From the IMG/VR virus record IMGVR_UViG_3300025617_000001, positions 2,249 to 66,248 of that record: a DNA stretch of 64,000 bases. The stretch is one strand, 5' to 3'. This DNA comes from a virus. Shown in pieces: positions 11,996-53,600 of this stretch (position 1 is its first letter; each line of letters opens with the position of its first letter). A program made the translations under genes and the position numbers. A model generated the notes under the pieces. That model made no database searches. It was not told the origin of the DNA and saw nothing but the letters and a program-made list of their open reading frames with translations.

Positions 11996-12017
11996 ATGTA
12001 AATATAAAATTACAACC

Positions 12018-14173: not shown

Positions 14174-14218
14174 GTGACAATAGGCTATAAGATTATAAGA
14201 GATAGGGGCTAATGTCAC
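14174..14218. promoter_or_regulatory. Spaced palindromic site, copy C, overlapping start codon of the HTH gene
   Basis: GTGACAATAGGC-N21-GGCTAATGTCAC; ATG 14212 lies in the right arm. Confidence 0.7.
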
Positions 14219-14832
14219 ACAATATGGATTACTTACATGACAATAAGATTATATACAAGCGTTTGCCTGTTTCAGATCTTCCGTCTGCTACGTATCATTG
14301 GGGTTGGCACTATGAAAACGGCACACATGAATACTACGCGTTGTTTCATTCTAAAAGCCAAATAACGTCTTATAAGTCATTAAAATGGCATTTGTATGTA
14401 TTATTACATCTAAATCCAGAAATGTCCAGAGAACGTTTTATTGAACTTACTGATTATATAACTAATAAAGATAATGGGTTTATTTCCTTTACTATCAATC
14501 GCGATGATCTTAGCGATATTATTGAGAAAGTATTAATGTACAATGTTGATCAACCACCGAACAACAGAATACGTAAAGTAATATTTAAAGACGGTACAGG
14601 TTTGTCTGTATCTGATAAACTAAAAATAACAGGTCAACTCATCGGAAGAAATAAAAACGCTTCTGAAAGTGATATATATGAAATAATGTTGTATCTTCAT
14701 GACCAAGGTGAAAAGATTACAGTTAAAAAAATATCTGAAGCCTTAAAAGTTACAACACGTACAATATATAGAAACATAACCGATGAGTTAAAAAAAGAAA
14801 AAGACCTACTTAATGAAGAATTACAATCTTGA
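14212..14832 (+). CDS. DNA-binding protein with C-terminal HTH (regulator or replication initiator)
   Basis: ITVKKISEALKVTTRTIYRN helix-turn-helix. Confidence 0.7.
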   Translation: MSHNMDYLHDNKIIYKRLPVSDLPSATYHWGWHYENGTHEYYALFHSKSQITSYKSLKWHLYVLLHLNPEMSRERFIELTDYITNKDNGFISFTINRDDLSDIIEKVLMYNVDQPPNNRIRKVIFKDGTGLSVSDKLKITGQLIGRNKNASESDIYEIMLYLHDQGEKITVKKISEALKVTTRTIYRNITDELKKEKDLLNEELQS

Positions 14833-15559
14833 CAATTACCTACGTTTCAAGAGAGACCTTGAAGAGGTAATGCCCGAAGATAAGCCGTGGATGGAATATT
14901 CACGAGACGAGTTGATTACAAAACTAATGCCGTTTGCTATTGATGTAGCAAGATCGTTTTCAACGTCAGATCAGGCATCAGGTGTAATGAGTATAAACGA
15001 CATAATGCAAGAAGCTTTCTTATCCTTGACACTAGCTGTAGATCGCATCGACTGGAACATGATGAACCATAACGATGATCTTGAGCGTCAGATAAAAGGC
15101 TTTGTAAGCAAAAGAATAAAAGGTGGTGTTCGCAGAGCTATTGATATTAATCGCGGCGATATTAGAATACCAGAACATAAGATTAATGAGATACGTAAAA
15201 ACGAAGGTAAAGACAAAGAGCTTGTTCAGATGTTTTTTAACTCTATATTTTTAAGTATCGATGAAAATGAAGAAGAAAACGGATTTGAAGTTGAAGACAA
15301 ATCCAAAGACTATAACATAAATATTCTTAATAAATATATATTATCTTTGATGCGACAGTATCTAAGTGATCGTGAATACGATGTAGTTCGTATGAGCTTT
15401 GGTTTAGACTGTGATAAGTTACCCGCAAAAAAGATAGCCAAGTTGCTTGATATACAGGGTGTTGCGGACTTCGTTCGTGTATCTCAGATTAAACGTGATG
15501 CTATTGACAAATTGATCGATAACGTGGACCCTGATCAAGTAATGGACTTTATGAACTAA
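14813..15559 (+). CDS. Phage sigma70-family sigma factor
   Basis: Region 2 (DIMQEAFLSLTLAVDRID...RIKGGVRRAID...IRIP); region 4 (LSDREYDVVRMSFGL...IAKLL...RVSQIKRDAIDKL). Confidence 0.88.
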   Translation: MKNYNLDNYLRFKRDLEEVMPEDKPWMEYSRDELITKLMPFAIDVARSFSTSDQASGVMSINDIMQEAFLSLTLAVDRIDWNMMNHNDDLERQIKGFVSKRIKGGVRRAIDINRGDIRIPEHKINEIRKNEGKDKELVQMFFNSIFLSIDENEEENGFEVEDKSKDYNINILNKYILSLMRQYLSDREYDVVRMSFGLDCDKLPAKKIAKLLDIQGVADFVRVSQIKRDAIDKLIDNVDPDQVMDFMN

Positions 15560-24955: not shown

Positions 24956-25447
24956 TTACGATAATAATCCTTTTTTAAACTCAGCCCAATTAAACGCCGA
25001 ACCTGGATCTGTTTTGCCTTTGCCTTCACCACGTACATGATCACCAGAACAATCTGAATGACGCACTACGTTTTCAGCAGGGATATTATATTCTTTCATC
25101 CACCACTTGCAAACTTCTATTGCTGTGGCCATTTGTTCTTTGGTATACGTGCCTTCAGTGTCAATAGCTTTTGAAAACGTTCCGAAGTCATGCTCGCCTG
25201 GTACAAGTAGTTCAAATCCCAAGTAGTGAGAGTTAAGATTACTAAGCCCGTTCCACTCAGACTTACCTGCGTGTAAAGCTTTTCCAGGTGTTTCCACCAT
25301 TTTTTCATAAGTACCATCAGGGTGAATAAAACCATGTACTGATAAATTTACTGACTTTAAAAAGTCGTGAGCTTTCATTGGACCTTCTGGCATTTTCAAG
25401 TACTCCGCCATTGAGTGTACAATAATTCCTTTTGGTTCGATTGCCAT
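24956..25447 (-). CDS. Endolysin, N-acetylmuramoyl-L-alanine amidase (Amidase_2)
   Basis: IIVHS; SVHGFI; HAG; LGFEL; VVRHSD; KTDPG. Confidence 0.9.
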   Translation of the reverse strand: MAIEPKGIIVHSMAEYLKMPEGPMKAHDFLKSVNLSVHGFIHPDGTYEKMVETPGKALHAGKSEWNGLSNLNSHYLGFELLVPGEHDFGTFSKAIDTEGTYTKEQMATAIEVCKWWMKEYNIPAENVVRHSDCSGDHVRGEGKGKTDPGSAFNWAEFKKGLLS

Positions 25448-30450: not shown

Positions 30451-33400
30451 TTACTTGTTTTTCATGTACTTTTTGTACTCGTCTAGAGACATGTTATTCA
30501 AATTACTTGTTTTTTTAGATTTTTTAACTTTCTTTTTATCTCTTGACTCAACACCCACGTTCCAAGTATTCCAACCTAGCACTAAAGCTATTTTAGCCCA
30601 AGTCTCCGTTTCAGCATCTGAAGCCGCTTTTAAATTTCTAACTTTAGTAAGCGCTCTATCAAGAGGTACGTTTAATGTAAATGCTGAAGCTGATCCAACA
30701 ATATCTAAAGCAGGATTATCAATAGTAACACCCATTTCAGCCATGCGATCTTTGTTGTATCTGTAGTTTTGGATAGAACTGTACATTTGTCTACCTTTAA
30801 TACCGATAGCAGGAGATATGTTCATGGCTTCAATTAATGTGTAAGCGTGATCCGCGCGTCCCCTACCTTCTTCTTGTTTAGCTTCTTGTTCAGCAAACTT
30901 GAGTATAACGTTTTTAGCGGTAGCAAGAACTCCACCGTAAAGACCGGTACCTCTAACAACTGTATCAACTACGTTATTAATCAGTCTTAGTTTTTTCTTT
31001 TCGTTATCTTCTTTGTTTTCTTCTTCATCATCTTCGAACAACATGCCAAACATTGCTTGCTGCATGGCTGAGAATACGATGTTCTGAACTACCATATAAT
31101 AAGCTATCTTGCTAATATTTGTTTTCATATCACCGCGTCCAGCAGCTAAGTCTTTTGCAGCCTTAACTATAATTCTAGTGTACTGCATTGGTGTATTCTG
31201 GAAGGCAAGGAATACACGACCAATAACATCTGTTTGTTGTTTAGCAAGACGATCAGGTCTAGCAGACTGTTGACTTTCTTCAGATATTTCTTGAAAGTCT
31301 AAGAAAGCTTGTTGTTCTGCTGCTTGTTGATTCATGCCTTGAGACAGATATGTATTTATTCTGTTTCTAAGGAATGGCGCGCCACCTGTTGCAATAGCAA
31401 AACTATCACCGATCTGTGTAAAACTAAAACCAAGTTGCAGTAATCTGGCGTGCATACCTTTTACACCACCTTTTTTAAGAGCTTCTGCTAAATCAGCAGC
31501 GTTAACGTCTGTTTTAAGACCTCCACGTCTTTCTTTTAAATAATCAGAGTTGAATATAAACGCCCAATCTTGAGTATACTGTTTTATATTAGCTACCGCA
31601 GCCGCGGCTTTAATAGGATTATTGTCGCTCCAATTTATAAAGTTAACTAGAGATATTTGCTGTAGTATTGCGGATCTAGTATTAAAGAACATAGTTACAG
31701 CCACAGACCCTCTGATCCAGTTTAAAAACTGATTCATTTGCTTGTTAGTACCTTCAGGTCTTGCCGTGCCGTTTTCCATTCGGTAATGCATATCTTCAAG
31801 AGCTGATCTAAAATCAGGACCGTAAGTGGCCTCAATTTTATTCATATTATTTTCTGAAAAGATCGTGTTTTTATTGTCGATCCACTCTTGTAGCATAGCT
31901 TTTCGAGAAACTTTCTCTACAGCTTTCACCATGTCAGACTTTATAGAATCTATCTGCCAGTTTTTAGCATCAGGCTCCACCCAAAATTCCTCAATACCTA
32001 ATATGCTTGATAATTCTTTACCATAAGCTTCTATATCAGGATTATTTTTTACAATTTTAACTAGCGCCGACTGAGTATCTTCATTTAAACCGGAAGGGTT
32101 AAATCCAGCTTTACCAAAAAGCCAAACTCTTAAAGCTTGCTCAAATGTAAAACCACCAAAACCTGTATCTTGTTTTAGTTTTTTAACAACATCAGGGTTA
32201 GCTTTATTTATCGCTTTATATCTTTTAGTTACAAGTTGTCTTTTTGCATTTAGTGCTTGATAAGCTTTAGCAAAAGGTTTTATAAGCTTATTTTCAAAAA
32301 ACTTATATTGCTCTTCTCCTAGTTTTCCTTTGTCTAAAAATCTATAAATTAAACCTACATAATCGTCTGCAGATGGAGCTAATATATCTCTTCTTTTAGC
32401 TCTAGTAGCAGCTAAGTTTTTAGCTGTAGCCCTGTCAAGTATTTGACCGGCAGTATATCTTTTATCTACATTAGCAAGTATAGCTGACATTCTAGACTCG
32501 TCGTTAGAAATAGTCTCGTTGTTTTCTATACTATATAGCTTATTAATTTTATCTACTTTTACAGCAAAGTCACTAGTCTTTGTTGTTTTGTCAGCTTGTC
32601 TAGCTACCCTTAAAGGTATAATTTGAGCTCTAGACTGTACTTGTTCTAATCTTTGGTCAGAAAGTATAGACGCTGCTCTTTTCACGTTTGTTTGTAATGT
32701 AGGATCTAAGTGCTCTAGTCTGTATTTTTTTCTTCTTCCAGATAAAGTTTTAGTACCATCAACTACAGAATCGTCAACTATTTCTGCTAACGCTTTTAAA
32801 CCTGTGTTTATATTAGAATCAAAAGCTGCTAACTGTAAAGCGAAAACTATACGATCAGTTAACTCTTCTTTTGTTTCAGCAGCATTAATAAAATCGTGTA
32901 TGTAAGATTCAGTAATACCAAACAATCCTCTTCTTACAGCGTTGTTTTTTCTATAGCTTTCTAATATCTTTAATCTTTCTGTTTCAGTCTTAGCTTTGTT
33001 TATCTTTCTTGTCATGTCAGAAAGAGGAACGTTATTTATTTGCTTTTTACCATGTTTTTCAATAAAAGCATTAACAAGTTCTTGTGTTCTTTCAGAAATA
33101 TTAGTGTTCGTAGATATATTTCTATTTATTTCACCTGCTTTTTTAATTATGTTTTCTAACTCTTTTTTATCAATTAAAATATTTCCTTCTTCGTCAATTA
33201 TACTTTTAACGTTATCAGGATCAATTAAAGTTTCTAGTTTTATACCATAAGCGTTGGTCCTGTAGCTATATCCCGATAAAGATTTAGTCAAACTACTGTA
33301 TACTTTAAAAATTGCAGGAAGACCATTTAAGAACTTAAACTGCATTTTTTCTAGCTCTTTTATTTTTTCAGCTTCAAATTTCTGAACACCTTTTCCAGTA

Positions 33401-36400
33401 GATGAAGTTCTATACTTGTCTAGTTTAGAAACAATATCTTCTACGGTAAGATCTCTATCCTCAAGAGCTTCTTGTATAACTGGGTTTGTTAAAATAACCG
33501 TTAACGCAGATCTAAAGTCTTTTTCATGCTTAGCGTCAACTACAATTTCGTCTATAGTTGTTGCTATAGAAAACATTTTATCAGACTTACCTGCGGCAAT
33601 GTTTTGTATGATATTTGGATTAACGCCTTGATCAATTAAATACTTTCTAACTTCAGCGTTTGTGATAAGCTTACCTAAAAGATTTAGCGTAGCTTTTACG
33701 GTTTGAGATTCTGGTGATCTTCCTGAAACTCCAGGTTTAAAATCACCGTTAGCATCTAAACCAATAGCTTCGTTAAACTCTTCTTTTGTTATGTTATTTA
33801 ACCTTTTAAATTCCCAAAGACCTTGTGCTTCTGTTCTTCTTACTGTGTCCTTTTCATAAAAAGCCTTAAGTATATTCTTAGGCATACCTGTAGACGTGCC
33901 TATCAATGCTTCTGACGCAGCTTCTGTTATTGCACCTTCTGGTAATATATTTATTATTGTAGAAGACTTCTCTGACAATAATTTAGCAGCTGACTTATAT
34001 TCACCGCTACTAAGATTTTTCTTAGGATCAGTTATTTTTGCAGCGGGCACACCAAAAGTGTCACTTAATTGTTCTGCTACCAAGTTAGGAACTTTTTTAA
34101 ACACAAGTGCTTCAACCTCAATATTTGGTATTTCTTGCTGTATAGCCTCAGTAGCTCCTTCAACATCATCAAGTATAGATACGGGATCAATAAGACTAAG
34201 ACCTCTTTGCATTTCAATCTCCATCTCATCCATCGCATCGATATCAAACTCTTCGGTGATAGCTTCTTCAGGCGCTTGTCTTACTTCGTCAATGTCAGTA
34301 GCAATACCCTCTTCTACACTAGCAATACCTAATCTACTAGCTAAGTTATTTGCTCTAAGATTAAGCCTGTTATTAACGAATTTAGTTAAAGATTGCTTGT
34401 CAGCATCATACTCGTTTTGAACCATAGCCGCGGCTTCTGATATCAAAGCGTCTTTATAATCAGATCTGCTAACTAACAATTTGTTATCAGCAGGTATAGG
34501 ATCATAAAGTCTTTTAGTGATACTTTCAACAGTGCCACCAATCATATTACCAAACTTAGTATTTTGTAGATTAAAGTCCATCAAAGGTTGGTCTTTAATA
34601 TCTACAGCTAGAGTTCTATTTACAAAGTCTCTAGGGTTTTTATATTTAGCAAATTCAGTGTTTATGTCTATAGACGCAAATGTACCTTGTATACCTGCTC
34701 CAGTAGCGGCTAGCTTCTGTGCTCTTTTGCTGAGTTTACCGTCTGTGTCAAATTCTTTTCTGTAGCTTTTTAAAAACTCAAAAACATCTTTACCAGATTT
34801 AAATTCTGCTTTTTCAAAACCAAACGTAGCAAATACTTTTTCAAGCATGCGTTTGATTTTATCCATTACTGTATCTGTAGCTTTTATTTGACCTTTAGCC
34901 ATAGCATCACTAGTTAAAGTAATTATTTCTTCTAACTGCGCAGGATTACCATCGTATGCTTCTAGTCTTTTTTGTATATTTTCAAATCCATCTAGTCCTT
35001 CAACTATAGACTTGAATTCATTTACAATTTGCTCTGATTTAGTTGGATCAATAAATGTAGATCTTAATATATTGTGTAACAATTCGTGAGAACCGACATT
35101 GTATTGTTTTGTTTTAGCAGCACCTTCTAAGTTTATTACTAAAGTACCATCATCTTTTCTGAAACCACCTACTTCGCCTTGCTCTTGTTTAGCGTCAGGA
35201 TATTGAGAATAAAACTCTTCCGATGTTTCTATTGTTTCTACATTAGCGTAGTTTTTAGCAATGTCAACTTCGCTAAGAACAGCTGTTTTAGCTTCTGTTA
35301 ATTGTTTTTCTGCAGATACTTCTTCTTCGGTTACTTTGTATTTAGAATATAGCTCACCGAGTCTTTCGTCTATTTCAGCTATTCTTTTTTTACCTATAAA
35401 CGTTTTATTGTCTAGTTTAGATTTTTCATTTTCTAGCTCAACGAACTCGTTAGCGTCGGTTTCATCTTGTATAAAGTTTTCTATAGCTTTTTTAGATCTA
35501 GCTTTTGTTATTTTATCTTGACCTTTTTCGTAAAGAACTTTATCGTCTTTTATTTTTATCCTAGCAGTAGCAATATTTTCGCCATTGTCAGAGTCAATAA
35601 ACTCTTCCATTTGCTGCTTAGTAATTTCTTCGCCATTTAATATATATCTAGGTTTTGTAGTTGCTGCTTTAACAAACGCTAAAGGAGCACCAGTCATACC
35701 ACCTACAGCTTCTAAACCAATTTCCGCAGCATCCATCTCTTGACCAGCTACTGCTCTACCAGCCGCTTCACCGACACCACCAACAGCGCCTTCAACTGCA
35801 AACGCTGTTGCTGTTTCAGCTATATTAGTAAGTTTAGCACCTGCTTTTACTGTTTTAGCTCCAGCGGTTACAGCTTTTATTGCGCCACCAGTTACCGCAG
35901 TACCTAAACCTTCAATAACACCTATAGTAGCACCTCTACCAATAGACCTGTTTTTTATGGATCTAAATTTTTCTTCGTCTTCTAGTAAAGCTTTTACAGT
36001 TTCTTTATCAAAGTCTTTACCTTCTTTTTGAAGTTCTTCTTGTAATAATTCTGCAAACGTTAAACCAGATTCCATAGCTCCAGAAACACCACCTACTAGA
36101 CCGGCTATACCACCAGGAACAGCACCAACACCACCAGCAGCAGCAGTAGCAGCACCACCAGCAGTAGCTCCAGTTACTAAACCTGCTAAACCAGCTTGAG
36201 CAACCTCATCTGCATTTAAAAAAGAACCTGCCATAGTGGCCATACTAGAAGCCATTACTTGAGGCACTACTTGGAAACGTGTTTTAACCATGCCTTTTAA
36301 AAAGCCAAAAACACCTCCACCCTCTTCGTCGTATATCTTTTGAAACTCCATCATTTCATCAGACATAGCAGCTTCTTGAGAATACCGGTTTGCGTCTATA

Positions 36401-36789
36401 AATTCTTGAATTTCTTCGTAACTAGCAGAAGAGCCTTTAGCCATTATATTTAGATCTTCATCTATTGATGTAGATTGTCTATAACCAGACTTAAAAGCTC
36501 TGTAAAAATCACCAAAGTAATCTGTTACAAAGTTTTTACCAAATGTTCTTTCAACTAGAGTATCTTGTTCTTGTGAATCCGAAGAACCAGTCTCCAAGTT
36601 GAAGTCCATATCGGGTGCTGCAGTTTCTTCCACAGGCGCACCCGTTACCTGTGGTTGTTGCTTTTCCACGTTTTCTACTTGCTTCATTTCTGGATTTTTA
36701 GCAAGTAGTTCATCTACAGTAATACCATTACTTGAAGCTAATTGTTCAAGCTCTTCTGGACTGAATTGTTGACCGTTTAATTCGTACAT
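30451..36789 (-). CDS. Giant internal/ejected virion protein with zincin (HELLH) and sigma-region-2-like segments
   Basis: 2112 aa; last of three genes after the tail genes; Gly/Ala hydrophobic segments; HELLH...EE; helical C-terminus typical of podovirus ejected proteins. Confidence 0.75.
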   Translation of the reverse strand: MYELNGQQFSPEELEQLASSNGITVDELLAKNPEMKQVENVEKQQPQVTGAPVEETAAPDMDFNLETGSSDSQEQDTLVERTFGKNFVTDYFGDFYRAFKSGYRQSTSIDEDLNIMAKGSSASYEEIQEFIDANRYSQEAAMSDEMMEFQKIYDEEGGGVFGFLKGMVKTRFQVVPQVMASSMATMAGSFLNADEVAQAGLAGLVTGATAGGAATAAAGGVGAVPGGIAGLVGGVSGAMESGLTFAELLQEELQKEGKDFDKETVKALLEDEEKFRSIKNRSIGRGATIGVIEGLGTAVTGGAIKAVTAGAKTVKAGAKLTNIAETATAFAVEGAVGGVGEAAGRAVAGQEMDAAEIGLEAVGGMTGAPLAFVKAATTKPRYILNGEEITKQQMEEFIDSDNGENIATARIKIKDDKVLYEKGQDKITKARSKKAIENFIQDETDANEFVELENEKSKLDNKTFIGKKRIAEIDERLGELYSKYKVTEEEVSAEKQLTEAKTAVLSEVDIAKNYANVETIETSEEFYSQYPDAKQEQGEVGGFRKDDGTLVINLEGAAKTKQYNVGSHELLHNILRSTFIDPTKSEQIVNEFKSIVEGLDGFENIQKRLEAYDGNPAQLEEIITLTSDAMAKGQIKATDTVMDKIKRMLEKVFATFGFEKAEFKSGKDVFEFLKSYRKEFDTDGKLSKRAQKLAATGAGIQGTFASIDINTEFAKYKNPRDFVNRTLAVDIKDQPLMDFNLQNTKFGNMIGGTVESITKRLYDPIPADNKLLVSRSDYKDALISEAAAMVQNEYDADKQSLTKFVNNRLNLRANNLASRLGIASVEEGIATDIDEVRQAPEEAITEEFDIDAMDEMEIEMQRGLSLIDPVSILDDVEGATEAIQQEIPNIEVEALVFKKVPNLVAEQLSDTFGVPAAKITDPKKNLSSGEYKSAAKLLSEKSSTIINILPEGAITEAASEALIGTSTGMPKNILKAFYEKDTVRRTEAQGLWEFKRLNNITKEEFNEAIGLDANGDFKPGVSGRSPESQTVKATLNLLGKLITNAEVRKYLIDQGVNPNIIQNIAAGKSDKMFSIATTIDEIVVDAKHEKDFRSALTVILTNPVIQEALEDRDLTVEDIVSKLDKYRTSSTGKGVQKFEAEKIKELEKMQFKFLNGLPAIFKVYSSLTKSLSGYSYRTNAYGIKLETLIDPDNVKSIIDEEGNILIDKKELENIIKKAGEINRNISTNTNISERTQELVNAFIEKHGKKQINNVPLSDMTRKINKAKTETERLKILESYRKNNAVRRGLFGITESYIHDFINAAETKEELTDRIVFALQLAAFDSNINTGLKALAEIVDDSVVDGTKTLSGRRKKYRLEHLDPTLQTNVKRAASILSDQRLEQVQSRAQIIPLRVARQADKTTKTSDFAVKVDKINKLYSIENNETISNDESRMSAILANVDKRYTAGQILDRATAKNLAATRAKRRDILAPSADDYVGLIYRFLDKGKLGEEQYKFFENKLIKPFAKAYQALNAKRQLVTKRYKAINKANPDVVKKLKQDTGFGGFTFEQALRVWLFGKAGFNPSGLNEDTQSALVKIVKNNPDIEAYGKELSSILGIEEFWVEPDAKNWQIDSIKSDMVKAVEKVSRKAMLQEWIDNKNTIFSENNMNKIEATYGPDFRSALEDMHYRMENGTARPEGTNKQMNQFLNWIRGSVAVTMFFNTRSAILQQISLVNFINWSDNNPIKAAAAVANIKQYTQDWAFIFNSDYLKERRGGLKTDVNAADLAEALKKGGVKGMHARLLQLGFSFTQIGDSFAIATGGAPFLRNRINTYLSQGMNQQAAEQQAFLDFQEISEESQQSARPDRLAKQQTDVIGRVFLAFQNTPMQYTRIIVKAAKDLAAGRGDMKTNISKIAYYMVVQNIVFSAMQQAMFGMLFEDDEEENKEDNEKKKLRLINNVVDTVVRGTGLYGGVLATAKNVILKFAEQEAKQEEGRGRADHAYTLIEAMNISPAIGIKGRQMYSSIQNYRYNKDRMAEMGVTIDNPALDIVGSASAFTLNVPLDRALTKVRNLKAASDAETETWAKIALVLGWNTWNVGVESRDKKKVKKSKKTSNLNNMSLDEYKKYMKNK

Positions 36790-36795: not shown

Positions 36796-38112
36796 TTAAA
36801 ATTTAAGACCTGCTTGTTGAGCCTTGTTTCTTGTAGTTAAATCTTGTAAGCCAAATTCTTTTTCAAAGTCTGCTTTTGATATTTCTTGATATTCAGCAGG
36901 TTCTTCTCCTTTTTTAGCTTTTTTTCTGTATAAGATTTGCCCATCAGGAGAAACTGTCATTTCATAATTTTCTTTTTGAAAATCATTAGTTCCTTTAAAT
37001 CTTATTTCAAACACTTCACCAGGAGGTGTTGTAACTATCTGTGTAGCAGCATTAACTCTATCTTGAAGATCCATGCCTGTTCTTTCTTCTGCAGGATCAA
37101 CTACACTAGTAGATCTTTGCATTGGAGCTTTATTACCTTGCTTTTCAGCATAACCAATTATCTGCTGTGATATAGCTTGTTTAATTTCTAGCTCTTGTTC
37201 TTCAGAACCTGTATACTCTTGATCTAAAATATCTTCGGCTACGTCTTTACCGATTTTTTGATAAATAGCATTTACTTGTGCACTTTCAGCAAAAGCGCTA
37301 GCCGCGGCTTCTTCGTCAAGAACTTGATAACCGTTTCTAACACCAGTCTTGTACATGTCACCCATTTGTTGATCAAAAACTTTAGCAGTTTTAGAGAATA
37401 GGTCAACCATTGAGTCGTTGTTAAAATCAATTTTAGTTTTTAAGTCAAAGTAATTGTCTGGATTAGCGATCATTTCAGATACAGGAACACGCTGTGTAGT
37501 GTAAGCTTCTTCTGGAATACCATTAATTTCTTGAACAGTTTTACCGTCAAGTTTAGACATATCTAAACCTTGATATTCTAAAAACCATTGCTTTGTTTCA
37601 GGGTCCCAGATTTCTTTAGCGTTTCCTGATTCTAAAGACTTTTGAAGTAAAAAGTTTTTTAAACTATTATTATCTTTTAACATAGAAGGTTTTACTCCAT
37701 CTAAGTCTATTTTATCTTTTACTTGATGTAATGCAATTATATCTTTTACAGCAGCATCTAAAACTGTTTTTTGTTTTAAATATTCTTCTCTTGTATAAAC
37801 TCCTTTTCTGAAATCAAGATCTAACTGTCCATGCTGCTCTGATATGTCAATAACACTTTGAGTGTTTTGCATTTTAGTTTCCTTATCAAATCTATTATAA
37901 GCATCTACAATAGCTTTGTCAAGTATTTCTTTTTCTTTTTCTTTTTCAGCTTTGTTTTGTTTTATACTCTGGCCAATTGTTTGACCAGCAACGGCTAAAC
38001 CTTGCCCTATAGCAGCTCCAATAGCTTCTTGACCACCTCTATATCTGATAGGTGTTGGGTTAGCGTATTCGCCGTAGTTGTATGTTCCCGGTGTTACTTT
38101 TGGTAGTGCCAT
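36796..38112 (-). CDS. Internal virion (ejected) protein
   Basis: 438 aa; position; amphipathic IGAAIGQGL N-terminus. Confidence 0.6.
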   Translation of the reverse strand: MALPKVTPGTYNYGEYANPTPIRYRGGQEAIGAAIGQGLAVAGQTIGQSIKQNKAEKEKEKEILDKAIVDAYNRFDKETKMQNTQSVIDISEQHGQLDLDFRKGVYTREEYLKQKTVLDAAVKDIIALHQVKDKIDLDGVKPSMLKDNNSLKNFLLQKSLESGNAKEIWDPETKQWFLEYQGLDMSKLDGKTVQEINGIPEEAYTTQRVPVSEMIANPDNYFDLKTKIDFNNDSMVDLFSKTAKVFDQQMGDMYKTGVRNGYQVLDEEAAASAFAESAQVNAIYQKIGKDVAEDILDQEYTGSEEQELEIKQAISQQIIGYAEKQGNKAPMQRSTSVVDPAEERTGMDLQDRVNAATQIVTTPPGEVFEIRFKGTNDFQKENYEMTVSPDGQILYRKKAKKGEEPAEYQEISKADFEKEFGLQDLTTRNKAQQAGLKF

Positions 38113-38115
38113 AAT

Positions 38116-38730
38116 TTATCCTGCAAATAATTTTCCAAATCCACCAGCTCCTCCAGCAGCAGAACCAACAGCACTTAAAGCTCCACCAACAATGCTACCA
38201 ATCATAGCTTTGTTAGCCGCTTTAATATCTTGTGCCCACTGCCCTGTTTGTTGTATCATGGCTGATTGTCTGGAAATATCAGCAACGTCTCTTTGTTCTT
38301 GTCCTTGGAAAGTAAATGTTTTACCAAGTATATCAGCTTCTTGCATACGTTGAGCTTCTTGCATACGCATCTGCATTGCTTGTTGCTCTCCTTGAGCTGC
38401 TAGTTGGGCATTTTTCGCCTCTTGTTGTTCAATGCTAGCAGAAACTCCTTGTTTAGCTCTAGACGCGGCTTGCGCTAAAGCTGTAGCACTGCCACCACCT
38501 GTAGCTCTTAAAGCGTCAAGCGTGCTAGCTAAACTAATATCTGTTTCTCTTGCTTGCATTTCAGCTGCTTTTGTTGCAACTTGCAAATTAGCAAAAGGAT
38601 TAGATATCATAGCAGAAAGATCCTTTACTCCAGCGTAAGGATCTATAATAGCTTGTCTGCTGCCTAACATGGTATCGAGCTTTTGTTGCTCTCTATCCAT
38701 TTGACGCATCATTTTTTTATACTTACTCAT
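38116..38730 (-). CDS. Internal virion (pilot/ejection) protein
   Basis: 204 aa; Ala/Gln helical, Gly-rich hydrophobic end. Confidence 0.6.
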   Translation of the reverse strand: MSKYKKMMRQMDREQQKLDTMLGSRQAIIDPYAGVKDLSAMISNPFANLQVATKAAEMQARETDISLASTLDALRATGGGSATALAQAASRAKQGVSASIEQQEAKNAQLAAQGEQQAMQMRMQEAQRMQEADILGKTFTFQGQEQRDVADISRQSAMIQQTGQWAQDIKAANKAMIGSIVGGALSAVGSAAGGAGGFGKLFAG

Positions 38731-38731: not shown

Positions 38732-41700
38732 TTAGTAACTATTTATATTATAGTTAGTTGAAACTGAAAACAACTCAGCGTTAGCATCTGAGCTCGTTAA
38801 CTTTAATTTTATAAAGTGACCTTTTACACCAGATATACTTCCTCCGAAAGATATTTCGTTATCAGTTTCTGTCGTGTTATTTATGATATTAGCGAAGTAT
38901 TTACCGTCAAAGTTTCTAAAAATGTTTAGATACATGTCAGTATTAGTATCTTGCTTAGTATTATCATAAGCTATGATGTTGTTTGCTGTGTCGGTATCTG
39001 TCGCTATACTATTTATATTCCACGTTTCTGTTCCTTCATAATTAAATGACAAGAAATTTTTGCTTGCAGAAGGGTTTTGGTTCATTACTAGATCTATGCT
39101 AGCATCAAAAGACTCGCCGTAAAATTGAGTTCCGTTGTAGTGCTCATACAACAAGCCATTTTTAAAAGTATAAAACTTACCATCTAAGCTTCCACCAGAC
39201 TCAGGCGCGTAATCGTAAAAACTTACAAAACCTTTAGCGCTCTCGTCATAACTTAATGTGTCAGTGTTATAAGAAAAAACGTATTGACGCTTAGCCATGT
39301 CCCAGGCACCTAGTATAGTTGTAGCAGTTTGTAAGTTTTGCACTAAATACGTTCTCATGCCGTAATTAGATATTTCTGTAAAACCATCACGAGAAAGCCT
39401 TAAAACAGCTCCTTTTGGCTGATCTACAAAGTATTTTCTACCAGCATAGTAAGCGAAGCTTTCAGGGTTTGTACCAATACCATAGTTACCTAAGTAAGCC
39501 ATAGGATCACCAAATACTTTATTTGATGTTATAACCTGAGGTATGCCTTCTGCTGTATATATAATATCTCTATCAATAGGTATGCTACTTACTTTTTCTT
39601 CTTGAAAAACTACAAGGTCTCTCTCTTCTGCAAAAAGCTTTTGTATACTACCATACTGTATATCAAGAGACTTAGTTATGTTTTCACCTAATGGAAACTG
39701 ATTAGTTTCGTTAAAACCAGTTCTTGGGTTGTATATACCAGAGTATATTAACGTATTTTCTCTAACAGTTGTTCCGTAATCATTGTTTGTAACGTGAGCA
39801 ACAACACCGAAGTCTACAGAGTCAGCGTTGAAGTCACCTCTAATTCTAGACTCTTCAACATGCCATATATCCTCTGAACTTGGAGGCGTGTCTCCTTTTA
39901 CAATAAATGTATTATAGTAATCAATTTCTATTTCAGTTACTAAATCAAGATCAGAAACTAAACCGCTTGTAGGTGTCTCATAATATATATCTAGCGCAGA
40001 CTCAAAAGGCTTTGTTTCAAGTACTGCTAAGTCGTGTACTTTACCAGTTATAATTAAATTATCACCAGTTAAATTAAAACCAATATCATCAGCTACAGAA
40101 GCTACAAGATAATTGTTATTTGCCTTGTAAAAACCTCTATTGTTTTCTGAGTCAGATGTAGATATAAACGTATCAGTAATGTCACTGTAGCTATTAAGCG
40201 TACCAATACCTTGTACTTTTACTAAGCCGCCACCAGATATAGTCTGATAAACATCTCCGCCATCTGTTCCAGGGTAAAGAGGCGTGGTGCCGTCTCCTGT
40301 GTAAGTGTATATATTAAACTCTTCAGAAGCACCAGCTGTGGCGCTACCGCCTGCAAAAGTGCCTTCTGGATATGTCAAAGATTTTATTGTATGGCCAGCT
40401 GTTCCAGCGCTACCATTGAATCTTAGCTTTTTAAATATAGTTATTTTTCTGCCTGTAGGTTGAGCGTAAATGCCAGTAAACGTTATACTTGTAACGTTAG
40501 AGCCACCGGTTTTAGTATAGTGAGTATTAACAGCACATAATAAGCCGTCAACGTAAACCTTAACGTCTTCAACAGTAGGTGTTAGTCCACCAACAGCGTC
40601 ACCTGCAGGCACGTTTATCGTCTGGCTTCCAGATATTTCATCAACAACATAATCACCATCATCTGCAGCCCAATAAGACCAGTTTACACTATTTCCAGAA
40701 GGTATAACTATAGTGTAGCTAGTTCTATTTAAATCAGTACCGTTTTTATTTTCAACATGTGCTGTGTAGAATCTACCATTTATAACTTTAGGATATATAT
40801 ACGTATTAGAACTAGAGATCTCACTCTCAAAGCTAATAGCCTCTGAGTTTCTAGGCACTTTATTTACGTTGTCACCAAAAGTTGTAAAATACGTTATACC
40901 ATTAAAAAATGATAAGCCAGGTATATATACATTGTAATACTCTTGCTGCGTTTGTTTTACAACAACTCTATAAGAGTGCCAATGATCACCTGTTGGTAGC
41001 TCTGAAAAAGTTAATTTTATAGAGTCGCCGTTCCATGAGCTTGCACTATCAGTTTTAGCAGGAATATTTATAGTAGGATTGTCACCAAGTATAACAGGTG
41101 ATTTTCTACCGTACTTATCAGAAAGAACAATACCTACTTCGTAGTTTCTTCTTTGTTTTATAGAGTGATGAGGATAAGCTGTATTAGCACTTGTAGATTT
41201 AGCACTATATGTTAACGTGTAGTTTAAGCTAGGCAGCTCATAGTTTTCTTCAAAGTTACCATAAACTATTCTATTACCAACAACTTCTTGAGCAGCTGCT
41301 TTTATAGGCGCGTTATCTGACACTCTTAGAAGCTCTTTTTCGTTAAGTGTTGATGTTGGTATCTCTGATTTGTATATGTGCTGCTTAGAAGTGTCTGAAT
41401 TAGATACGCTAAGTTTCTTTATAATTCTTACTGCAGAAGAGTTAGCATCTTTCATTAATATTTCTACAGACTCTATACCGTAATCGTCTACAGGGTTTGT
41501 AGGTAGATCTACATCAATAGTAACTTGTCTAGCGTCGTTTACAAAAGTTTCTAGTAAACCTTGCTCGTAAGCTTTTTGTACTTGAGAAGAAGTTAGTTGA
41601 TTGTTTGCTAGTTTAAAAGCTATAGGTGAAAAAGGCGCTAACTGAGAATAAGTGCCGTCGTTGTATTTGTATCTATAAGAAAACCTGACAAACTTTTCCT

Positions 41701-42268
41701 CGATGTAGTTGTTTTCTATTGATGCATTTGCTAAAGATATAGACGGCGCTAAAAATGGAGAATACTTAACTACAGAAACCTTTGTTTCATCAGTTAAGTC
41801 ATGATAATAAGTATTGTCTGCATTAAACTTTTTCAACTCTATACGCCTTGGAGGATTTTCATTGTCTGTCCAAAAAAGTATATCGTCTAATATGTTTATA
41901 CCAGTTATAAGTCTTTGCTTGTCAAAGTTAAGATAAGATCCTTTAGCTATAGTACTTAGCGTAGTTGTGTCTGTTTTGTACTGATATATTTTATGATTAG
42001 TGTCGTCAGTTACAAAATAATATATAGCGTTATTTTTGTCGTCAAAAAAACTACCAACAGTTTTAGGTGTTCCTGTAAAATAAGGATCAGCGCTAGTTAA
42101 CGCTGTATTTCCTTTTACTTTTCTTACAGTACCTATATCACCTCCACCGTCAATGTCTGTTGTGACTTGAATATTCTGTGCATCTCGATATTCGCCTTCT
42201 GGCACCAATCGGTCATCAAGGCTTTTATTCATCTTTCCGGCAAGGAAAGTGTGCTTAATTTCCGGCAT
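38732..42268 (-). CDS. Tail nozzle/stabilisation protein (P22 gp10/T7 gp12-like)
   Basis: 1178 aa; F..GKMN..LD.RL.P.GEYRDA.N start; YGSIQKL; YGIG.NPESFA. Confidence 0.75.
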   Translation of the reverse strand: MPEIKHTFLAGKMNKSLDDRLVPEGEYRDAQNIQVTTDIDGGGDIGTVRKVKGNTALTSADPYFTGTPKTVGSFFDDKNNAIYYFVTDDTNHKIYQYKTDTTTLSTIAKGSYLNFDKQRLITGINILDDILFWTDNENPPRRIELKKFNADNTYYHDLTDETKVSVVKYSPFLAPSISLANASIENNYIEEKFVRFSYRYKYNDGTYSQLAPFSPIAFKLANNQLTSSQVQKAYEQGLLETFVNDARQVTIDVDLPTNPVDDYGIESVEILMKDANSSAVRIIKKLSVSNSDTSKQHIYKSEIPTSTLNEKELLRVSDNAPIKAAAQEVVGNRIVYGNFEENYELPSLNYTLTYSAKSTSANTAYPHHSIKQRRNYEVGIVLSDKYGRKSPVILGDNPTINIPAKTDSASSWNGDSIKLTFSELPTGDHWHSYRVVVKQTQQEYYNVYIPGLSFFNGITYFTTFGDNVNKVPRNSEAISFESEISSSNTYIYPKVINGRFYTAHVENKNGTDLNRTSYTIVIPSGNSVNWSYWAADDGDYVVDEISGSQTINVPAGDAVGGLTPTVEDVKVYVDGLLCAVNTHYTKTGGSNVTSITFTGIYAQPTGRKITIFKKLRFNGSAGTAGHTIKSLTYPEGTFAGGSATAGASEEFNIYTYTGDGTTPLYPGTDGGDVYQTISGGGLVKVQGIGTLNSYSDITDTFISTSDSENNRGFYKANNNYLVASVADDIGFNLTGDNLIITGKVHDLAVLETKPFESALDIYYETPTSGLVSDLDLVTEIEIDYYNTFIVKGDTPPSSEDIWHVEESRIRGDFNADSVDFGVVAHVTNNDYGTTVRENTLIYSGIYNPRTGFNETNQFPLGENITKSLDIQYGSIQKLFAEERDLVVFQEEKVSSIPIDRDIIYTAEGIPQVITSNKVFGDPMAYLGNYGIGTNPESFAYYAGRKYFVDQPKGAVLRLSRDGFTEISNYGMRTYLVQNLQTATTILGAWDMAKRQYVFSYNTDTLSYDESAKGFVSFYDYAPESGGSLDGKFYTFKNGLLYEHYNGTQFYGESFDASIDLVMNQNPSASKNFLSFNYEGTETWNINSIATDTDTANNIIAYDNTKQDTNTDMYLNIFRNFDGKYFANIINNTTETDNEISFGGSISGVKGHFIKLKLTSSDANAELFSVSTNYNINSY

Positions 42269-45497: not shown

Positions 45498-46889
45498 TTA
45501 GTTAAATAATACAAAGTTGTTAGCTCCTTGTACTACTAAACATCTTTCAGTTAGATAGTGTACTTCCATCTTGTCATCTCCTGAAGTAGCAGCGCCACCA
45601 ACAGAACCAGTAATCCAAGACTTCATACGACGATCATCAGCTTCAGAAGCACGGTAACGTACGTGTAGGAAAGGACGTTTGATGTTCTTACCTAGAAGTT
45701 GATCGTAAACTGAAGAAGTACCAGCAGGTACTAATACACCTTCAACACCACCGATAAGACCACGAGTAGTAGCATCGTTTAAGTATTTCCAGTCAGTTTT
45801 GTAGAAATCATAAGATCCACGACGGAAACCTGAGAATCCTAAGTTAAGTGCCATATCCTCAGAGTTGTTGAATACTCCGTAAGAAGTACCACCAGCACCG
45901 TAAGAATTTTGAGCAGCTAACATATCGTCGATAGATAGAGCGATATCACGGTTAACGAAAAGCATGTTCTCTTCGATAGCACCTTCTTTGTCAAGTTTCT
46001 TAAGTAGAGTGTCAAAGTCTTGTAAAGACTCAGTAGCAGTTCCACCTACAAAACCATCAAATTGGTGACCACGTGATTCAATAGCAGAGAAAAGACCTTC
46101 AGTACCGTCTACATCAACAACACCGCTAGCTCCTTTTTTCTCAGCTTCAACAAGTGACATTTCAGCGTAATCTTCGAAACGAGTACGAGTATCACCTTCA
46201 GCTTTGATGTACCATAGGTAACCAGTTTGACCTGATTCACCAGTTACTTCAATCCAACCAATTTGAGAAGCGTCAGATCCAGAAATTTCATAATGATCTT
46301 TAAGGATAATTGGCTTGTTAGTTAGAGAGATGAAATCTGGCTCAACAGCGTCAGACATTGCAGCAGTTCCTTTTTTGAATTCAGAACCGTAAACAAATAA
46401 CTGAACATCTTCAGCAGAAGAAATTCCAAGACCGTCAGCAGCGTAGCAAGATACAGTAATTGTAGTTGCACCAACAGCAGTAACTAAAGCCTTAAAGATA
46501 CCTGTAGAAGCAGAAATAACTACAGTCTGATTAAGACGTACAGCGTGATTTGCTCCAACAGTGATAACGTTTACTTCAGATCCAGAAGTTCCTGAGTCTG
46601 CAGCAGCTTCAACACCGTCAAAAGAGATGTGAAGACGTCCTTGTTCTGACCAGATAACTTGGTCTGAAGTCATAGGCATTTCAGCACCTACCATTTGTAA
46701 GAATCCAGAAACAGAGCGGTTTCCATAACGCTCTACCTCAGCTTCGTATAGCTCTGGTAAGTATTGTTGAGCCCAACCAGCAGTTCCAGCTGCTGTGAAA
46801 TCGATATAGTTAGTCGATAAAGTTTGTTTTACTGGGGCAGCATTTGATAGGATTAAGCTGCTACCTGCAGTATAAGTTGCATTTGCCAT
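45498..46889 (-). CDS. Major capsid protein
   Basis: 463 aa; follows portal and scaffold; strongly biased codon use; followed by terminator. Confidence 0.85.
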   Translation of the reverse strand: MANATYTAGSSLILSNAAPVKQTLSTNYIDFTAAGTAGWAQQYLPELYEAEVERYGNRSVSGFLQMVGAEMPMTSDQVIWSEQGRLHISFDGVEAAADSGTSGSEVNVITVGANHAVRLNQTVVISASTGIFKALVTAVGATTITVSCYAADGLGISSAEDVQLFVYGSEFKKGTAAMSDAVEPDFISLTNKPIILKDHYEISGSDASQIGWIEVTGESGQTGYLWYIKAEGDTRTRFEDYAEMSLVEAEKKGASGVVDVDGTEGLFSAIESRGHQFDGFVGGTATESLQDFDTLLKKLDKEGAIEENMLFVNRDIALSIDDMLAAQNSYGAGGTSYGVFNNSEDMALNLGFSGFRRGSYDFYKTDWKYLNDATTRGLIGGVEGVLVPAGTSSVYDQLLGKNIKRPFLHVRYRASEADDRRMKSWITGSVGGAATSGDDKMEVHYLTERCLVVQGANNFVLFN

Positions 46890-52775: not shown

Positions 52776-53050
52776 TACTTAGACCTCCTTTCTGCAAACC
52801 CTTTAAATGATTCTTTTTCATTTTCTTTAGGTTTGTTATCTAGCATAGCTTCTTCTTCTTGAATCTTATTCAATATTTCAAAAGCGTCGAATATTGCTAG
52901 CTTTTTAGTTGCTGCAGCGTTTTTAAGTCTGTCAGCAGATACATCATCTTCTGTATGAGTAATAATTTTTTCTTCAGCTACACGTATTAGTTCATCAACT
53001 GCTTTGTAGCCAGACTGGATTATACTCCTCTTCAGTTCCTTGATATCCAT
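52775..53050 (-). CDS. Putative terminase small subunit
   Basis: 91 aa, helical, directly upstream of terL. Confidence 0.45.
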   Translation of the reverse strand: MDIKELKRSIIQSGYKAVDELIRVAEEKIITHTEDDVSADRLKNAAATKKLAIFDAFEILNKIQEEEAMLDNKPKENEKESFKGFAERRSK

Positions 53051-53600
53051 ATTTAATACAAATTGAATTAGTTGGTACTCTGTAAAGACGCTGGTTATCT
53101 ATGATAAACTCATACTCGCTGTCTGGAGTAAAACCTATAAGATCGTCTTTTTTAAGACCGTTTTTTATAAGACCATTATCAAGGTATTTCAACACACCGG
53201 TATGTTCTTCTTCTGGGTTAGTTGAAAATAACTTTTTGCTCTTTATTGGTTGGACAAAGCAAAAACCTTCAAGCGGTTTCCACTCTCCGTTTCTTTTATA
53301 CATAAACACTTGTTCTGGAAAAACAAAGTATTTATCTTCTTCGAAATAACTTTTACTATTTTTTTCTTCTCCTCTTACGTCATGAAACCTTCTAAAGACA
53401 TTATGGTGAACGATTACTTCATCACCTTTTTTAATACCTGTTTTACCAACGATCGGAGTTTCTAATACAACACCTATTCTACTTACAAACTTGTGGTCTT
53501 GTATTTCTGTATTTAATATAAGTTCAACGTCATCGACTTTAGTCGTATTTTCGTATCTATTGTTTTTAGGCTCTATAATAAAACTATATAAGCTCCTCAT
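52995..53600 (-). CDS. Tandem GroES-like co-chaperonin
   Basis: Two GroES-like halves: FIIEP...GVV...GIKKGDEVI and FCFVQPI...TGVL...GLKKDDLIGF...EFII....LY. Confidence 0.6.
   Translation of the reverse strand: MRSLYSFIIEPKNNRYENTTKVDDVELILNTEIQDHKFVSRIGVVLETPIVGKTGIKKGDEVIVHHNVFRRFHDVRGEEKNSKSYFEEDKYFVFPEQVFMYKRNGEWKPLEGFCFVQPIKSKKLFSTNPEEEHTGVLKYLDNGLIKNGLKKDDLIGFTPDSEYEFIIDNQRLYRVPTNSICIKYGYQGTEEEYNPVWLQSS

What the first reader, a model, noticed from the sequence alone, without database searches (positions are those of the whole stretch)
30451..36789. Giant ejected virion protein carrying a zincin protease next to a sigma70 region-2-like domain: candidate injected sigma factor
Seen: HELLH (35074-35088, aa ~568-572) with a downstream EE, then aa ~749-821 (34545-34327) MIGGTVESITKRLY...KDALISEAAAMVQNEYDADKQSLTKFVNNRLNLRANNLA. 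By eye this follows sigma70 regions 2.1-2.4 in order (LVISIAKKY / DLIQEG / FD...G.KFSTYA...IR), and an acidic linker comes after it. Known: podovirus internal proteins enter the cell with the DNA, zincins occur in phage polyvalent proteins, and region 2 binds core RNAP and the -10 element. No RNAP catalytic motif is evident. Inference: a self-processing polyprotein delivers a sigma-like factor that redirects host core RNAP to the 12 early GATAAT-containing promoters. This would be an alternative to the virion RNAPs of N4 and crAss-like phages. The similarity is remote and unverified.
Basis: partly seen in the sequence, partly recalled or inferred. Interest (0 to 1): 0.88.

Follow-up and report, generated by a model that had tools for sequence, protein, structure and literature searches.

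The report
Giant phage cargo protein, sigma-like fold
A 2112-residue protein of a marine-type phage, probably carried in the virion and ejected into the host, holds a conserved zinc-protease motif and a small optional domain whose predicted shape resembles the core-binding domain of bacterial sigma factors, but nothing yet shows that it works as one.

Summary
The ORF (30451-36789, minus strand, 2112 aa) is real. It lies in the late operon of a complete 66-kb phage, directly after a crAss-type muzzle gene and two small genes, where crassviruses encode ejected cargo proteins.

It belongs to a large, metagenome-only family of shuffled modules. The C-terminal helical module is in 120 of 120 relatives, the HExxH module in 108 and the sigma-like module in 74.

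H568, E569, H572 and E621 are invariant. There is no DxDxD motif.

The functional claim is weaker:
- The 13-copy early motif (TACGA-N9-GATAAT) is real and conserved in relatives.
- Of 12 near-complete relatives with at least 3 copies, 8 lack the sigma-like module.
- The phage has a separate, genuine sigma gene (14813-15559).

This is most likely an ejected modular cargo protein with an accessory sigma2-like module. The injected early sigma remains a minority reading.

The parts
30451..36789 (-). Giant ORF, 2112 aa (P0001), including the stop codon
   Evidence: 866 homologues at E<=0.001 among 7999 scored candidates
35200..36612 (-). N module (aa 60-530), with a Gly/Ala-rich part and a coiled-coil-like part
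   Evidence: PHROG 32588 (unknown function), E 6.8e-64, on aa 72-530; present in 70 of 120 relatives
36073..36150 (-). The only hydrophobic stretch (aa 214-239), Gly/Ala-rich
   Evidence: Kyte-Doolittle window of 19, score >=1.4
34690..35157 (-). Zincin-like module (aa 545-700). HELLH lies at 35074-35088 and invariant E621 at 34927-34929
   Evidence: H, E, H, E invariant in 61/61 and 31/31; present in 108 of 120 relatives; only weak peptidase family hits
34306..34674 (-). Sigma2-like helical module (aa 706-828).
34186..34305 (-). Acidic linker (aa 829-868), 35% D+E
   Evidence: model pLDDT <50
33565..34185 (-). Conserved alpha/beta module (aa 869-1075), fold not matched
   Evidence: pLDDT mostly >90; present in 84 of 120 relatives; no Foldseek match at E<=0.001
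32470..33492 (-). Variable middle module (aa 1100-1440)
   Evidence: present in 32 of 120 relatives
30550..32442 (-). Family-defining C-terminal all-helical module (aa 1450-2080)
   Evidence: present in 120 of 120 relatives; many invariant polar residues; all-helical model
30454..30549 (-). Basic C-terminal tail (aa 2081-2112), 38% K+R
38732..42268 (-). Context: crAss-type muzzle-like protein (1178 aa), two genes upstream
   Evidence: PF25731 crAss_MUZ, E 1.3e-11; PHROG 14478 virion structural protein
36796..38730 (-). Context: two small genes (204 and 438 aa) between the muzzle gene and the giant gene, at the position of crassvirus cargo proteins C1/C2
   Evidence: gene order in PhiCrAss001 taken from passages of PMC10172136
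5466..12988 (+). Context: 13 copies of the early promoter-like motif GCAGAC-N4-TACGA-N9-GATAATAT
14813..15559 (+). Context: separate phage sigma-factor gene (248 aa)
   Evidence: PHROG 351 'RNA polymerase sigma factor', E 1.7e-11; collinear Sigma70_r2 and r4 hits; PDB SigB region 4, E 0.0057

Best explanation
P0001 is a giant, modular virion cargo protein, a 'polyvalent' or ejection protein, of a podovirus with a crAss-type muzzle. The host is probably a member of the Flavobacteriia. By inference, the protein is packed in the capsid and pushed out through the tail at infection. The universally conserved helical C-terminal module is the common chassis, serving packaging and/or the ejection channel. 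The upstream modules are exchangeable cargo. The invariant HExxH...E module is a zincin-type peptidase that may cut the chain into its modules. The module at aa 706-828 is a real small helical domain with a sigma-domain-2-like topology. It is an optional accessory, perhaps directed at host RNA polymerase, and is not the factor that reads the 13 early promoters. Those promoters are more likely read by host RNA polymerase holoenzyme. The phage's own sigma factor (14813-15559), encoded downstream of them, would then take over later transcription. Shown here: the ORF, its context, the modular family, the invariant motif and the fold resemblance in a predicted model. Inferred: virion location, ejection, cleavage and every function.
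For: Context. The window is part of a complete 66,248-bp record with direct terminal repeats. The late-operon order is terminase, portal, capsid-like protein, muzzle-like protein, two small genes, the giant gene, then endolysin. This matches the PhiCrAss001 order of muzzle, C1, C2 and giant cargo proteins, which were found in virions by mass spectrometry (passages of PMC10172136). Syntenic giants of 1829, 3859 and 3694 aa occur in Maribacter phage Panino, MW202828 and Flavobacterium phage elemoA, and the elemoA one is annotated 'structural protein'.

Modularity. There are 16 module combinations among 120 relatives. C is present in 120 of 120, Zn in 108, mid1 in 84, the sigma-like module in 74, N in 70 and mid2 in 32. 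Some relatives carry Zeta-toxin or AAA_33 modules. This fits the polyvalent-protein scheme with a zincin hub (abstract and passages of PMC5512222).

Zincin motif. H, E, H and E are invariant.

Against a promoter role. The motif occurs at >=3 copies in 12 of 18 near-complete relatives, and the module is detectable in only 4 of those 12. A true sigma gene is present here, and in 15 of 18 near-complete relatives at 51-59% identity.
Against: There is no direct evidence that the protein is in virions or is ejected. No cultured relative of the giant protein was found by tblastn in the phage collection, for the whole protein or for its N or C parts. The zincin fold itself is not confirmed: the model has pLDDT <50 around the motif, no Pfam peptidase family reaches its threshold, and no cleavage sites are known. 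The early motif does not look like the Bacteroidota sigmaA consensus as I recall it (-33 TTTG, -7 TAnnTTTG). It looks more like a -35/-10 pair with a 17-18 bp spacer. That leaves room for a special factor. The 8 module-less relatives could carry a version too diverged for an 88-position profile, and one borderline hit at E 1.5e-4 was seen. The uniformity of the sigma hits argues that the module is more than a generic helical spacer.
Confidence: 0.5

Rival explanations
1. After self-cleavage by the zincin, the sigma2-like module is delivered from the virion, binds host core RNA polymerase and directs it to the 13 early GATAAT-type promoters. It would act as a minimal sigma with domain 2 only, in the manner of T4 gp55.
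Against: No sequence homology to sigma factors was detected. The region 2.2 and 2.3 signatures, including the aromatic melting residues, are absent from the family consensus. The module is absent from 46 of 120 relatives and from 8 of 12 motif-bearing near-complete genomes. The G009/G054 pattern rests on 2 genomes; my own hand calculation of Fisher's test gives about 0.09. Z stays below 8, which the tool warns is common for helical models.
Confidence: 0.08
2. The module is a diverged sigma2 domain used as a mimic, not as a specificity factor. Once delivered with the DNA, it occupies the sigma-binding site on the beta' clamp helices. It would either displace host sigma and shut off host transcription, or tether RNA polymerase to the entering genome.
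For: The fold evidence is the same (weak phage-sigma rows in BFVD). Being optional fits an accessory anti-host effector among shuffled modules. Polyvalent proteins are proposed to 'jump-start transcription' and to target host systems (abstract of PMC5512222). A strongly acidic linker follows the module.
Against: There is no sequence signal for the core-binding helix. No binding evidence of any kind exists. The module occurs only inside these giant proteins, in 157 cluster representatives whose short members are fragments, so no independent functional context exists.
Confidence: 0.2
3. The sigma2 likeness is coincidental. A three- to four-helix bundle in a medium-confidence AlphaFold model happens to superpose on sigma domain 2. 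The module would be a structural spacer or a protein-protein adaptor unrelated to transcription.
Against: The hit list is almost purely sigma factors, and 86-92 residues align at 2.6-3.3 A. The other helical model from the same protein gave a mixed list. Foldseek's weak rows, in both the PDB and BFVD, also include sigma factors.
Confidence: 0.2

Closest known systems
Polyvalent proteins of phages and conjugative elements (Iyer, Burroughs, Anand, de Souza, Aravind 2017, PMC5512222; abstract and passages read)
   Same: It is a very large multidomain protein with shuffled modules. A zincin-type HExxH + Glu module acts as the hub, and delivery with the DNA is predicted. Some relatives carry kinase or Zeta-toxin-like modules.
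   Different: No Pfam polyvalent-protein domain is matched: MPTase-PolyVal and the LPD families gave no hit at E<=10. LPD38 and LPD39 are only language-model leads. That paper does not contain the word 'sigma' (0 occurrences).
Crassvirus cargo proteins and virion RNA polymerase (PhiCrAss001 gp45-gp50; passages of PMC10172136), and the N4 virion RNA polymerase (abstract of PMC13434306)
   Same: The gene order is the same: muzzle gene, two small genes, then a protein of more than 230 kDa. In crassviruses these are virion-borne cargo that start early transcription.
   Different: There is no DxDxD or other polymerase motif. The family profile matches no solved polymerase. The C module is predicted to be all-helical.
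Sigma70-family domain 2, including minimal phage sigmas such as T4 gp55
   Different: There is no profile similarity and no 2.2/2.3 signature residues. No region 4 is present. The module is embedded in a 2112-aa protein. That entry 7d7d chain F is gp55 is my recollection, not a tool result.
Phage-encoded sigma factors of the phiEco32 / 7-11 and SPO1 type (abstracts seen)
   Same: This genome has such a gene (14813-15559). The usual scheme of host holoenzyme early and phage sigma later fits its position downstream of the early motif cluster.
   Different: This concerns a different gene from the finding. Which promoters it reads is unknown.
T7 gp14/gp15/gp16 and P22 ejection proteins (abstracts of PMC8605104 and PMC8954989)
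   Same: They are mostly helical internal proteins of podoviruses, encoded after the tail genes and ejected to build the DNA channel.
   Different: No sequence or fold match was found. Here one giant chain with exchangeable modules takes the place of three separate proteins.

Membership tests
Sigma70-family sigma factor (domain 2, Pfam PF04542) | Sequence/profile match to Sigma70_r2 | tested here: not met
   No Sigma70 family at E<=10 for the whole protein, for six pieces, or among the families listed for 19 module sequences. hhalign against six E. coli sigma2 sequences gave probability 0.75% and 1.07%. The module profile hit no sigma chain among PDB sequences.
Sigma70-family sigma factor (domain 2, Pfam PF04542) | Sigma2 helical fold over the whole domain | tested here: met
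Sigma70-family sigma factor (domain 2, Pfam PF04542) | Conserved region 2.2 core-binding motif and region 2.3 aromatic melting residues | tested here: not met
   The family consensus is TKxLYDPI...R..F...NEYD..KQ.LEKFI.NRG.LRAN.LA.RLGI. The invariant residues are I765, R775, R812 and G821. There is no DLIQEG-like block or Y/W cluster as seen in the E. coli alignment A5.
Sigma70-family sigma factor (domain 2, Pfam PF04542) | Binding to the core RNA polymerase beta' clamp helices and recognition of the -10 element | not testable with these tools
   This needs pull-down, two-hybrid or in vitro transcription experiments with the purified module.
Sigma70-family sigma factor (domain 2, Pfam PF04542) | Region 4 (-35 recognition) in the same protein | tested here: not met
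   No Sigma70_r4 hit in P0001. As I recall, this feature is not obligatory, because T4 gp55 lacks it.
Zincin-like metallopeptidase of polyvalent proteins | HExxH on one helix plus a downstream Glu, both conserved | tested here: met
   H568, E569, H572 and E621 are invariant in 61/61 and 31/31.
Zincin-like metallopeptidase of polyvalent proteins | Profile match to a curated zincin family | tested here: not met
   Only weak hits were found, all below curated thresholds: Peptidase_M78 in 4 of 31 members (best E 0.013), DUF3267 in 2 of 31, M90 in 1 of 31. Nothing was found for the window's own copy.
Zincin-like metallopeptidase of polyvalent proteins | Zincin fold (three-stranded sheet with flanking helices) | tested here: inconclusive
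   Model pLDDT is below 50 around the motif. The fold-search lists were filled by the sigma2-like part.
Virion RNA polymerase (crAss-like phi14:2 gp66 type, or N4 type) | Catalytic Asp motif (DxDxD) or a T7-like polymerase domain | tested here: not met
   No D.D.D, D.DGD or GDD occurs. The full-length family profile hit no solved polymerase. The PF00940 search found nothing, but its controls did not ring, so that search is uninformative.
Podovirus ejected cargo / internal virion protein | Encoded in the late structural operon next to tail-tip genes | tested here: met
Podovirus ejected cargo / internal virion protein | Physically present in virions and released at infection | not testable with these tools
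   The only hint is the 'structural protein' annotation of the non-homologous syntenic giant of phage elemoA.

The most novel reading that the evidence does not exclude
The module at aa 706-828 is a true but extremely diverged sigma domain 2 carried inside the virion. After release from the giant cargo protein it engages host core RNA polymerase at the moment of genome entry. It would act either as a minimal domain-2-only sigma or as a sigma competitor. That would be a third way, besides virion RNA polymerases and reliance on host holoenzyme, for a phage to control the first minutes of transcription.
Probability: 0.2. Interest if true: 0.85.

Novelty: new variant of a known kind. Interest (0 to 1): 0.6.

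Why it matters
Giant proteins of this family are common in environmental viromes: 866 homologues passed E<=0.001 among the 7999 candidates scored. No hit turned up among deposited phage genomes. Their conserved parts match no curated family, so they are a large blind spot in phage biology.

If the sigma2-like module does bind RNA polymerase, it would be the first sigma-type domain known to me that is delivered as virion cargo. My searches turned up no such report. It would also link crassvirus-style cargo delivery to host-polymerase capture.

Even if it does not, the locus gives a clean system for study:
- a 13-copy early promoter motif conserved across diverged relatives;
- a separate phage sigma gene;
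- an exchangeable cargo protein.

Together these could show how phages that probably infect Bacteroidota start transcription.

Tried and rejected
- **Virion RNA polymerase reading.** Rejected. There is no catalytic motif. Neither P0001 alone nor the full-length family profile hit a solved polymerase. The PF00940 search was uninformative because its controls did not ring.
- **Pfam.** The whole protein and six pieces gave nothing at E<=10.
- **tblastn against the phage collection.** The whole protein and its N and C parts gave no match. The tool notes that very near records may be left out.
- **BLASTP against the syntenic 1829-aa giant of Maribacter phage Panino.** No significant similarity; its Pfam scan gave only a weak SHOCT hit.
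- **ESM Atlas.** The nearest named clusters were LPD39, DUF5763 and LPD38, at 0.93-0.95. I kept these as leads only and did not verify them. The 530-1100 piece gave unnamed clusters.
- **Alpha/beta module aa 869-1075.** No match appeared in any list, but the lists were filled by the sigma2-like part. This is not evidence for a new fold.
- **Complex prediction.** The module alignment was run with residues 200-360 of Flavobacterium johnsoniae beta' (RPOC_FLAJ1). There was no verdict: the median score was 0.29 against a mark of 0.32, and controls were not run. This counts neither for nor against binding.
- **Stand-alone or sigma4-fused forms of the module.** The 150 listed of the 157 hits were giant proteins or shorter entries by length. 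All 7 of the shorter entries that I read were contig-edge fragments or chimeric assemblies.
- **Late-promoter motif.** Inspection by eye upstream of 31 minus-strand genes found nothing convincing.
- **Repeat flanks.** Aligning the flanks of the 5200 and 14203 repeat was unhelpful.
- **Cluster names.** A cluster-member look-up for four relatives held by NCBI and the nearest relative gave no informative name.
Full report
**What is there.** The ORF at 30451-36789 on the minus strand is open for 2112 codons. HELLH is aa 568-572 (35074-35088), and the quoted stretch aa 749-821 is 34545-34327. HELLH is the only HExxH in the protein. There is no D.D.D, D.DGD or GDD string.

**Genome context.** The window is bases 2249-66248 of a complete 66,248-bp virus record with direct terminal repeats. 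The minus-strand late operon reads as follows:
- GroEL (55223-56791) and a GroES-like gene (52995-53600);
- terminase (50568-52775);
- portal (48150-50567);
- a capsid-like 'virion structural protein' (45498-46889) and further virion structural proteins;
- a 1178-aa protein with the crassvirus muzzle domain (38732-42268; PF25731, E 1.3e-11);
- two small genes of 204 and 438 aa;
- the giant gene;
- five more genes;
- an amidase/endolysin (24956-25447).

In PhiCrAss001 the order is muzzle gp44, cargo proteins gp45 and gp46, then the giant RNA-polymerase-associated cargo proteins gp47, gp49 and gp50. All of these were found in virions by mass spectrometry (passages of PMC10172136). So the giant protein here sits at the position of ejected cargo.

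Portal relatives at 44-53% identity are phages of Flavobacterium, Cellulophaga, Maribacter and Tenacibaculum. Three of them carry a syntenic giant gene of 1829, 3859 or 3694 aa, and the elemoA one is annotated 'structural protein'. The Panino giant shows no BLAST similarity to P0001. Gene starts here lack Shine-Dalgarno-like sequences, by eye. I take that, with the portal relatives, as a hint of a Bacteroidota host. This is inference.

**Family and architecture.** No Pfam family matches at E<=10, either for the whole protein or for six pieces. One PHROG of unknown function covers aa 72-530. The metagenome protein collection holds 866 homologues at E<=0.001 among the 7999 candidates scored. tblastn against deposited phage genomes found none.

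BLAST coverage of the 120 best homologues shows separable modules in 16 combinations:

| Module | Residues | Present in (of 120) |
|---|---|---|
| C-terminal | 1450-2080 | 120 |
| HExxH | 545-700 | 108 |
| alpha/beta | 869-1075 | 84 |
| sigma-like | 741-828 | 74 |
| N | 60-530 | 70 |
| variable middle | 1100-1440 | 32 |

Some relatives add Zeta-toxin or AAA_33 modules. The best BFVD hit is such a relative, labelled UDP-N-acetylglucosamine kinase (E 3e-8). This is the logic of the 'polyvalent proteins' of Iyer et al. 2017. In that scheme a zincin-like peptidase is the hub domain, and delivery with the DNA is proposed (abstract and passages of PMC5512222).

**The zincin motif.** H568, E569, H572 and E621 are invariant in 61 of 61 and in 31 of 31 sequences. 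Support beyond the motif is thin. Per-member Pfam scans gave only sub-threshold hits: Peptidase_M78 in 4 of 31, DUF3267 in 2 of 31 and M90 in 1 of 31. A profile search of PDB sequences found no peptidase. The model is poor around the motif, with pLDDT below 50. I therefore call it zincin-like on the motif alone. Self-processing is inference.

**The sigma-like stretch: sequence tests.** All were negative.
- No Sigma70 family appears among the hits for the piece aa 749-821, the piece aa 700-1100, or any of 19 module sequences.
- A profile of the module finds no sigma chain among PDB sequences.
- hhalign of the family module (A6, A7) against an alignment of six E. coli sigma2 regions (A5) gives probabilities of 0.75% and 1.07%.
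- The family consensus is TKxLYDPI..DAK..V.R..F..SL.SD...M..NEYD..KQ.LEKFI.NRG.LRAN.LA.RLGI, with invariant I765, R775, R812 and G821.
- It lacks the DLIQEG-type block and the aromatic cluster of region 2.3 seen in A5.

**The sigma-like stretch: structure tests.** These were positive. An AlphaFold2 model of aa 530-1100, built from 33 sequences, has mean pLDDT 69.8. Blocks of about 70-85 cover helices at model residues 216-232, 246-264 and 272-290.

Foldseek against the PDB found nothing at E<=0.001. Its weak rows did include ShbA and a Thermus sigmaA chain.

VIA-align against 48,161 representative chains returned a nearly pure list. Of the first 30 rows, 28 are sigma factors or chains of transcription-initiation complexes, all on model residues ~135-303, which is aa ~664-832. 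Examples:

I conclude that a sigma2-like topology is a real property of the model. Homology is not shown.

**Distribution of the module.** A profile search of 1.84 billion cluster representatives found 157 proteins at E<=0.001. Most of the 150 listed are 1200-3600 aa long. All 7 short ones I read are contig-edge fragments or chimeric assemblies. No stand-alone form and no region-4 fusion turned up.

**The promoters.** The pattern TACGR-N9-GATAAT occurs 13 times, all on the plus strand between 5480 and 12986. Each copy lies 20-45 nt upstream of an ATG. Chance expectation is 0.03. The full motif is GCAGAC-N4-TACGA-N9-GATAATAT, with fixed spacing. It can be read as a -35-like and a -10-like element 17-18 bp apart. 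It only partly overlaps the Bacteroidota -7 box TAnnTTTG. That consensus is recalled, not checked.

The pattern is conserved in relatives. Of the 18 related virus records that are at least 90% complete, 15 have at least one copy and 12 have three or more. Reversed-pattern controls gave 0-1.

A six-frame search of whole records with the module profile (E<=0.01) finds the module in only 4 of those 12 records (G009, G018, G054, G077). It is absent from the other 8: G038, G055, G056, G059, G061, G069, G073 and G076. The motif therefore does not depend on a recognisable sigma2-like module. The caveat is that a more diverged version could escape an 88-position profile.

**A true sigma gene elsewhere.** ORF 14813-15559 (plus strand, 248 aa) has three lines of support:
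- It matches PHROG 351 'RNA polymerase sigma factor' (E 1.7e-11, aa 28-237).
- It has collinear sub-threshold Sigma70_r2 and Sigma70_r4 hits.
- It aligns to region 4 of a solved SigB (E 0.0057).

Homologues at 51-59% identity occur in 15 of 18 near-complete relatives. In the records I compared (G038, G073, G076, G077), the gene lies downstream of the motif cluster on the same strand. The ordinary scheme fits this layout: host holoenzyme for early genes, then a phage sigma for later ones, as in phiEco32-like phages and SPO1 (abstracts).

One oddity remains. The two motif-bearing near-complete relatives without this gene, G009 and G054, both carry the sigma2-like module. With two genomes this is only a hint.

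**How it most likely works.** My best reading, at about 0.5, is an ejected modular cargo protein.
- The conserved helical C module serves packaging and/or channel formation.
- The zincin-like module may release the cargo modules.
- The sigma2-like module is an optional accessory.

That the module touches host RNA polymerase in some way I put at about 0.2-0.3. That it is the specificity factor for the 13 early promoters I put at about 0.08. A purely coincidental fold I put at about 0.2.

**Novelty.** Giant virion cargo proteins, polyvalent proteins with zincin hubs and phage sigma factors are all known. A sigma2-like fold inside such a cargo protein is not described in the papers my searches returned. 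Iyer et al. 2017 contains no 'sigma'. These searches cover only the held library, and supplements were not seen. I file the finding as a new variant of a known kind.

**Limits.**
- The zincin part and the alpha/beta module (aa 869-1075) were therefore barely tested by fold search.
- No coordinates were available to map residues onto sigma2.

Noticed in passing
window 14813-15559 (+): A separate 248-aa phage sigma-factor gene. It matches PHROG 351 (E 1.7e-11) and has collinear weak Sigma70_r2 and r4 hits. It is conserved at 51-59% identity in 15 of 18 near-complete relatives. It overlaps the end of an HTH protein gene (14212-14832).
   Followed up: partly
window 5466-12988 (+): Thirteen copies of a fixed-spacing motif, GCAGAC-N4-TACGA-N9-GATAATAT, lie upstream of small early ORFs. 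Three of them are in tandem at 5466-5640. The core pattern recurs in 15 of 18 near-complete relatives. Which factor reads it is unknown.
   Followed up: partly
window 5200-5221 and 14203-14224 (+): A 22-nt repeat (82% identity) sits at the head of the plus-strand early block and directly before the HTH-sigma gene pair. It may be a second regulatory site.
   Followed up: partly
window 33565-34185 (-), aa 869-1075 of the giant protein: A well-conserved alpha/beta module modelled at pLDDT mostly above 90, with motifs such as LPEGA and LIGTSTG. It appeared in no fold-search list. It needs folding on its own before anything is said about its fold.
   Followed up: no
window 38732-42268 (-): A crassvirus muzzle domain (PF25731, E 1.3e-11, plus a weak C-terminal domain hit) occurs in a 66-kb phage. 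No catalytic motif of a crAss-type virion RNA polymerase was found in the window.
   Followed up: partly
window 55223-56791 and 52995-53600 (-): The phage encodes a GroEL (PF00118, E 1.7e-59) and a GroES-like co-chaperonin. Related Flavobacteriia phages share these.
   Followed up: no
window 1660-4890, 59367-61775, 62451-63773 (-): Three tail-fibre-like genes each end in a Peptidase_S74 intramolecular chaperone domain. A fourth fibre-like gene lies at 57374-59374.
   Followed up: no
window 5668-5888 and 6861-7081 (+): A 221-nt direct repeat at 74% identity lies in the early region. The two copies are probably paralogous small early genes.
   Followed up: no
relatives P0049, P0060, P0061, P0068, P0070, P0085, P0107: Some family members carry Zeta-toxin (PF06414) and AAA_33 kinase modules in place of other middle modules. 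This fits exchangeable effector cargo.
   Followed up: no
records G009 and G054 (loci L013, L058): These are the only two motif-bearing near-complete relatives that lack the stand-alone sigma gene, and both carry the sigma2-like module in the giant protein. Two genomes are too few to judge.
   Followed up: partly
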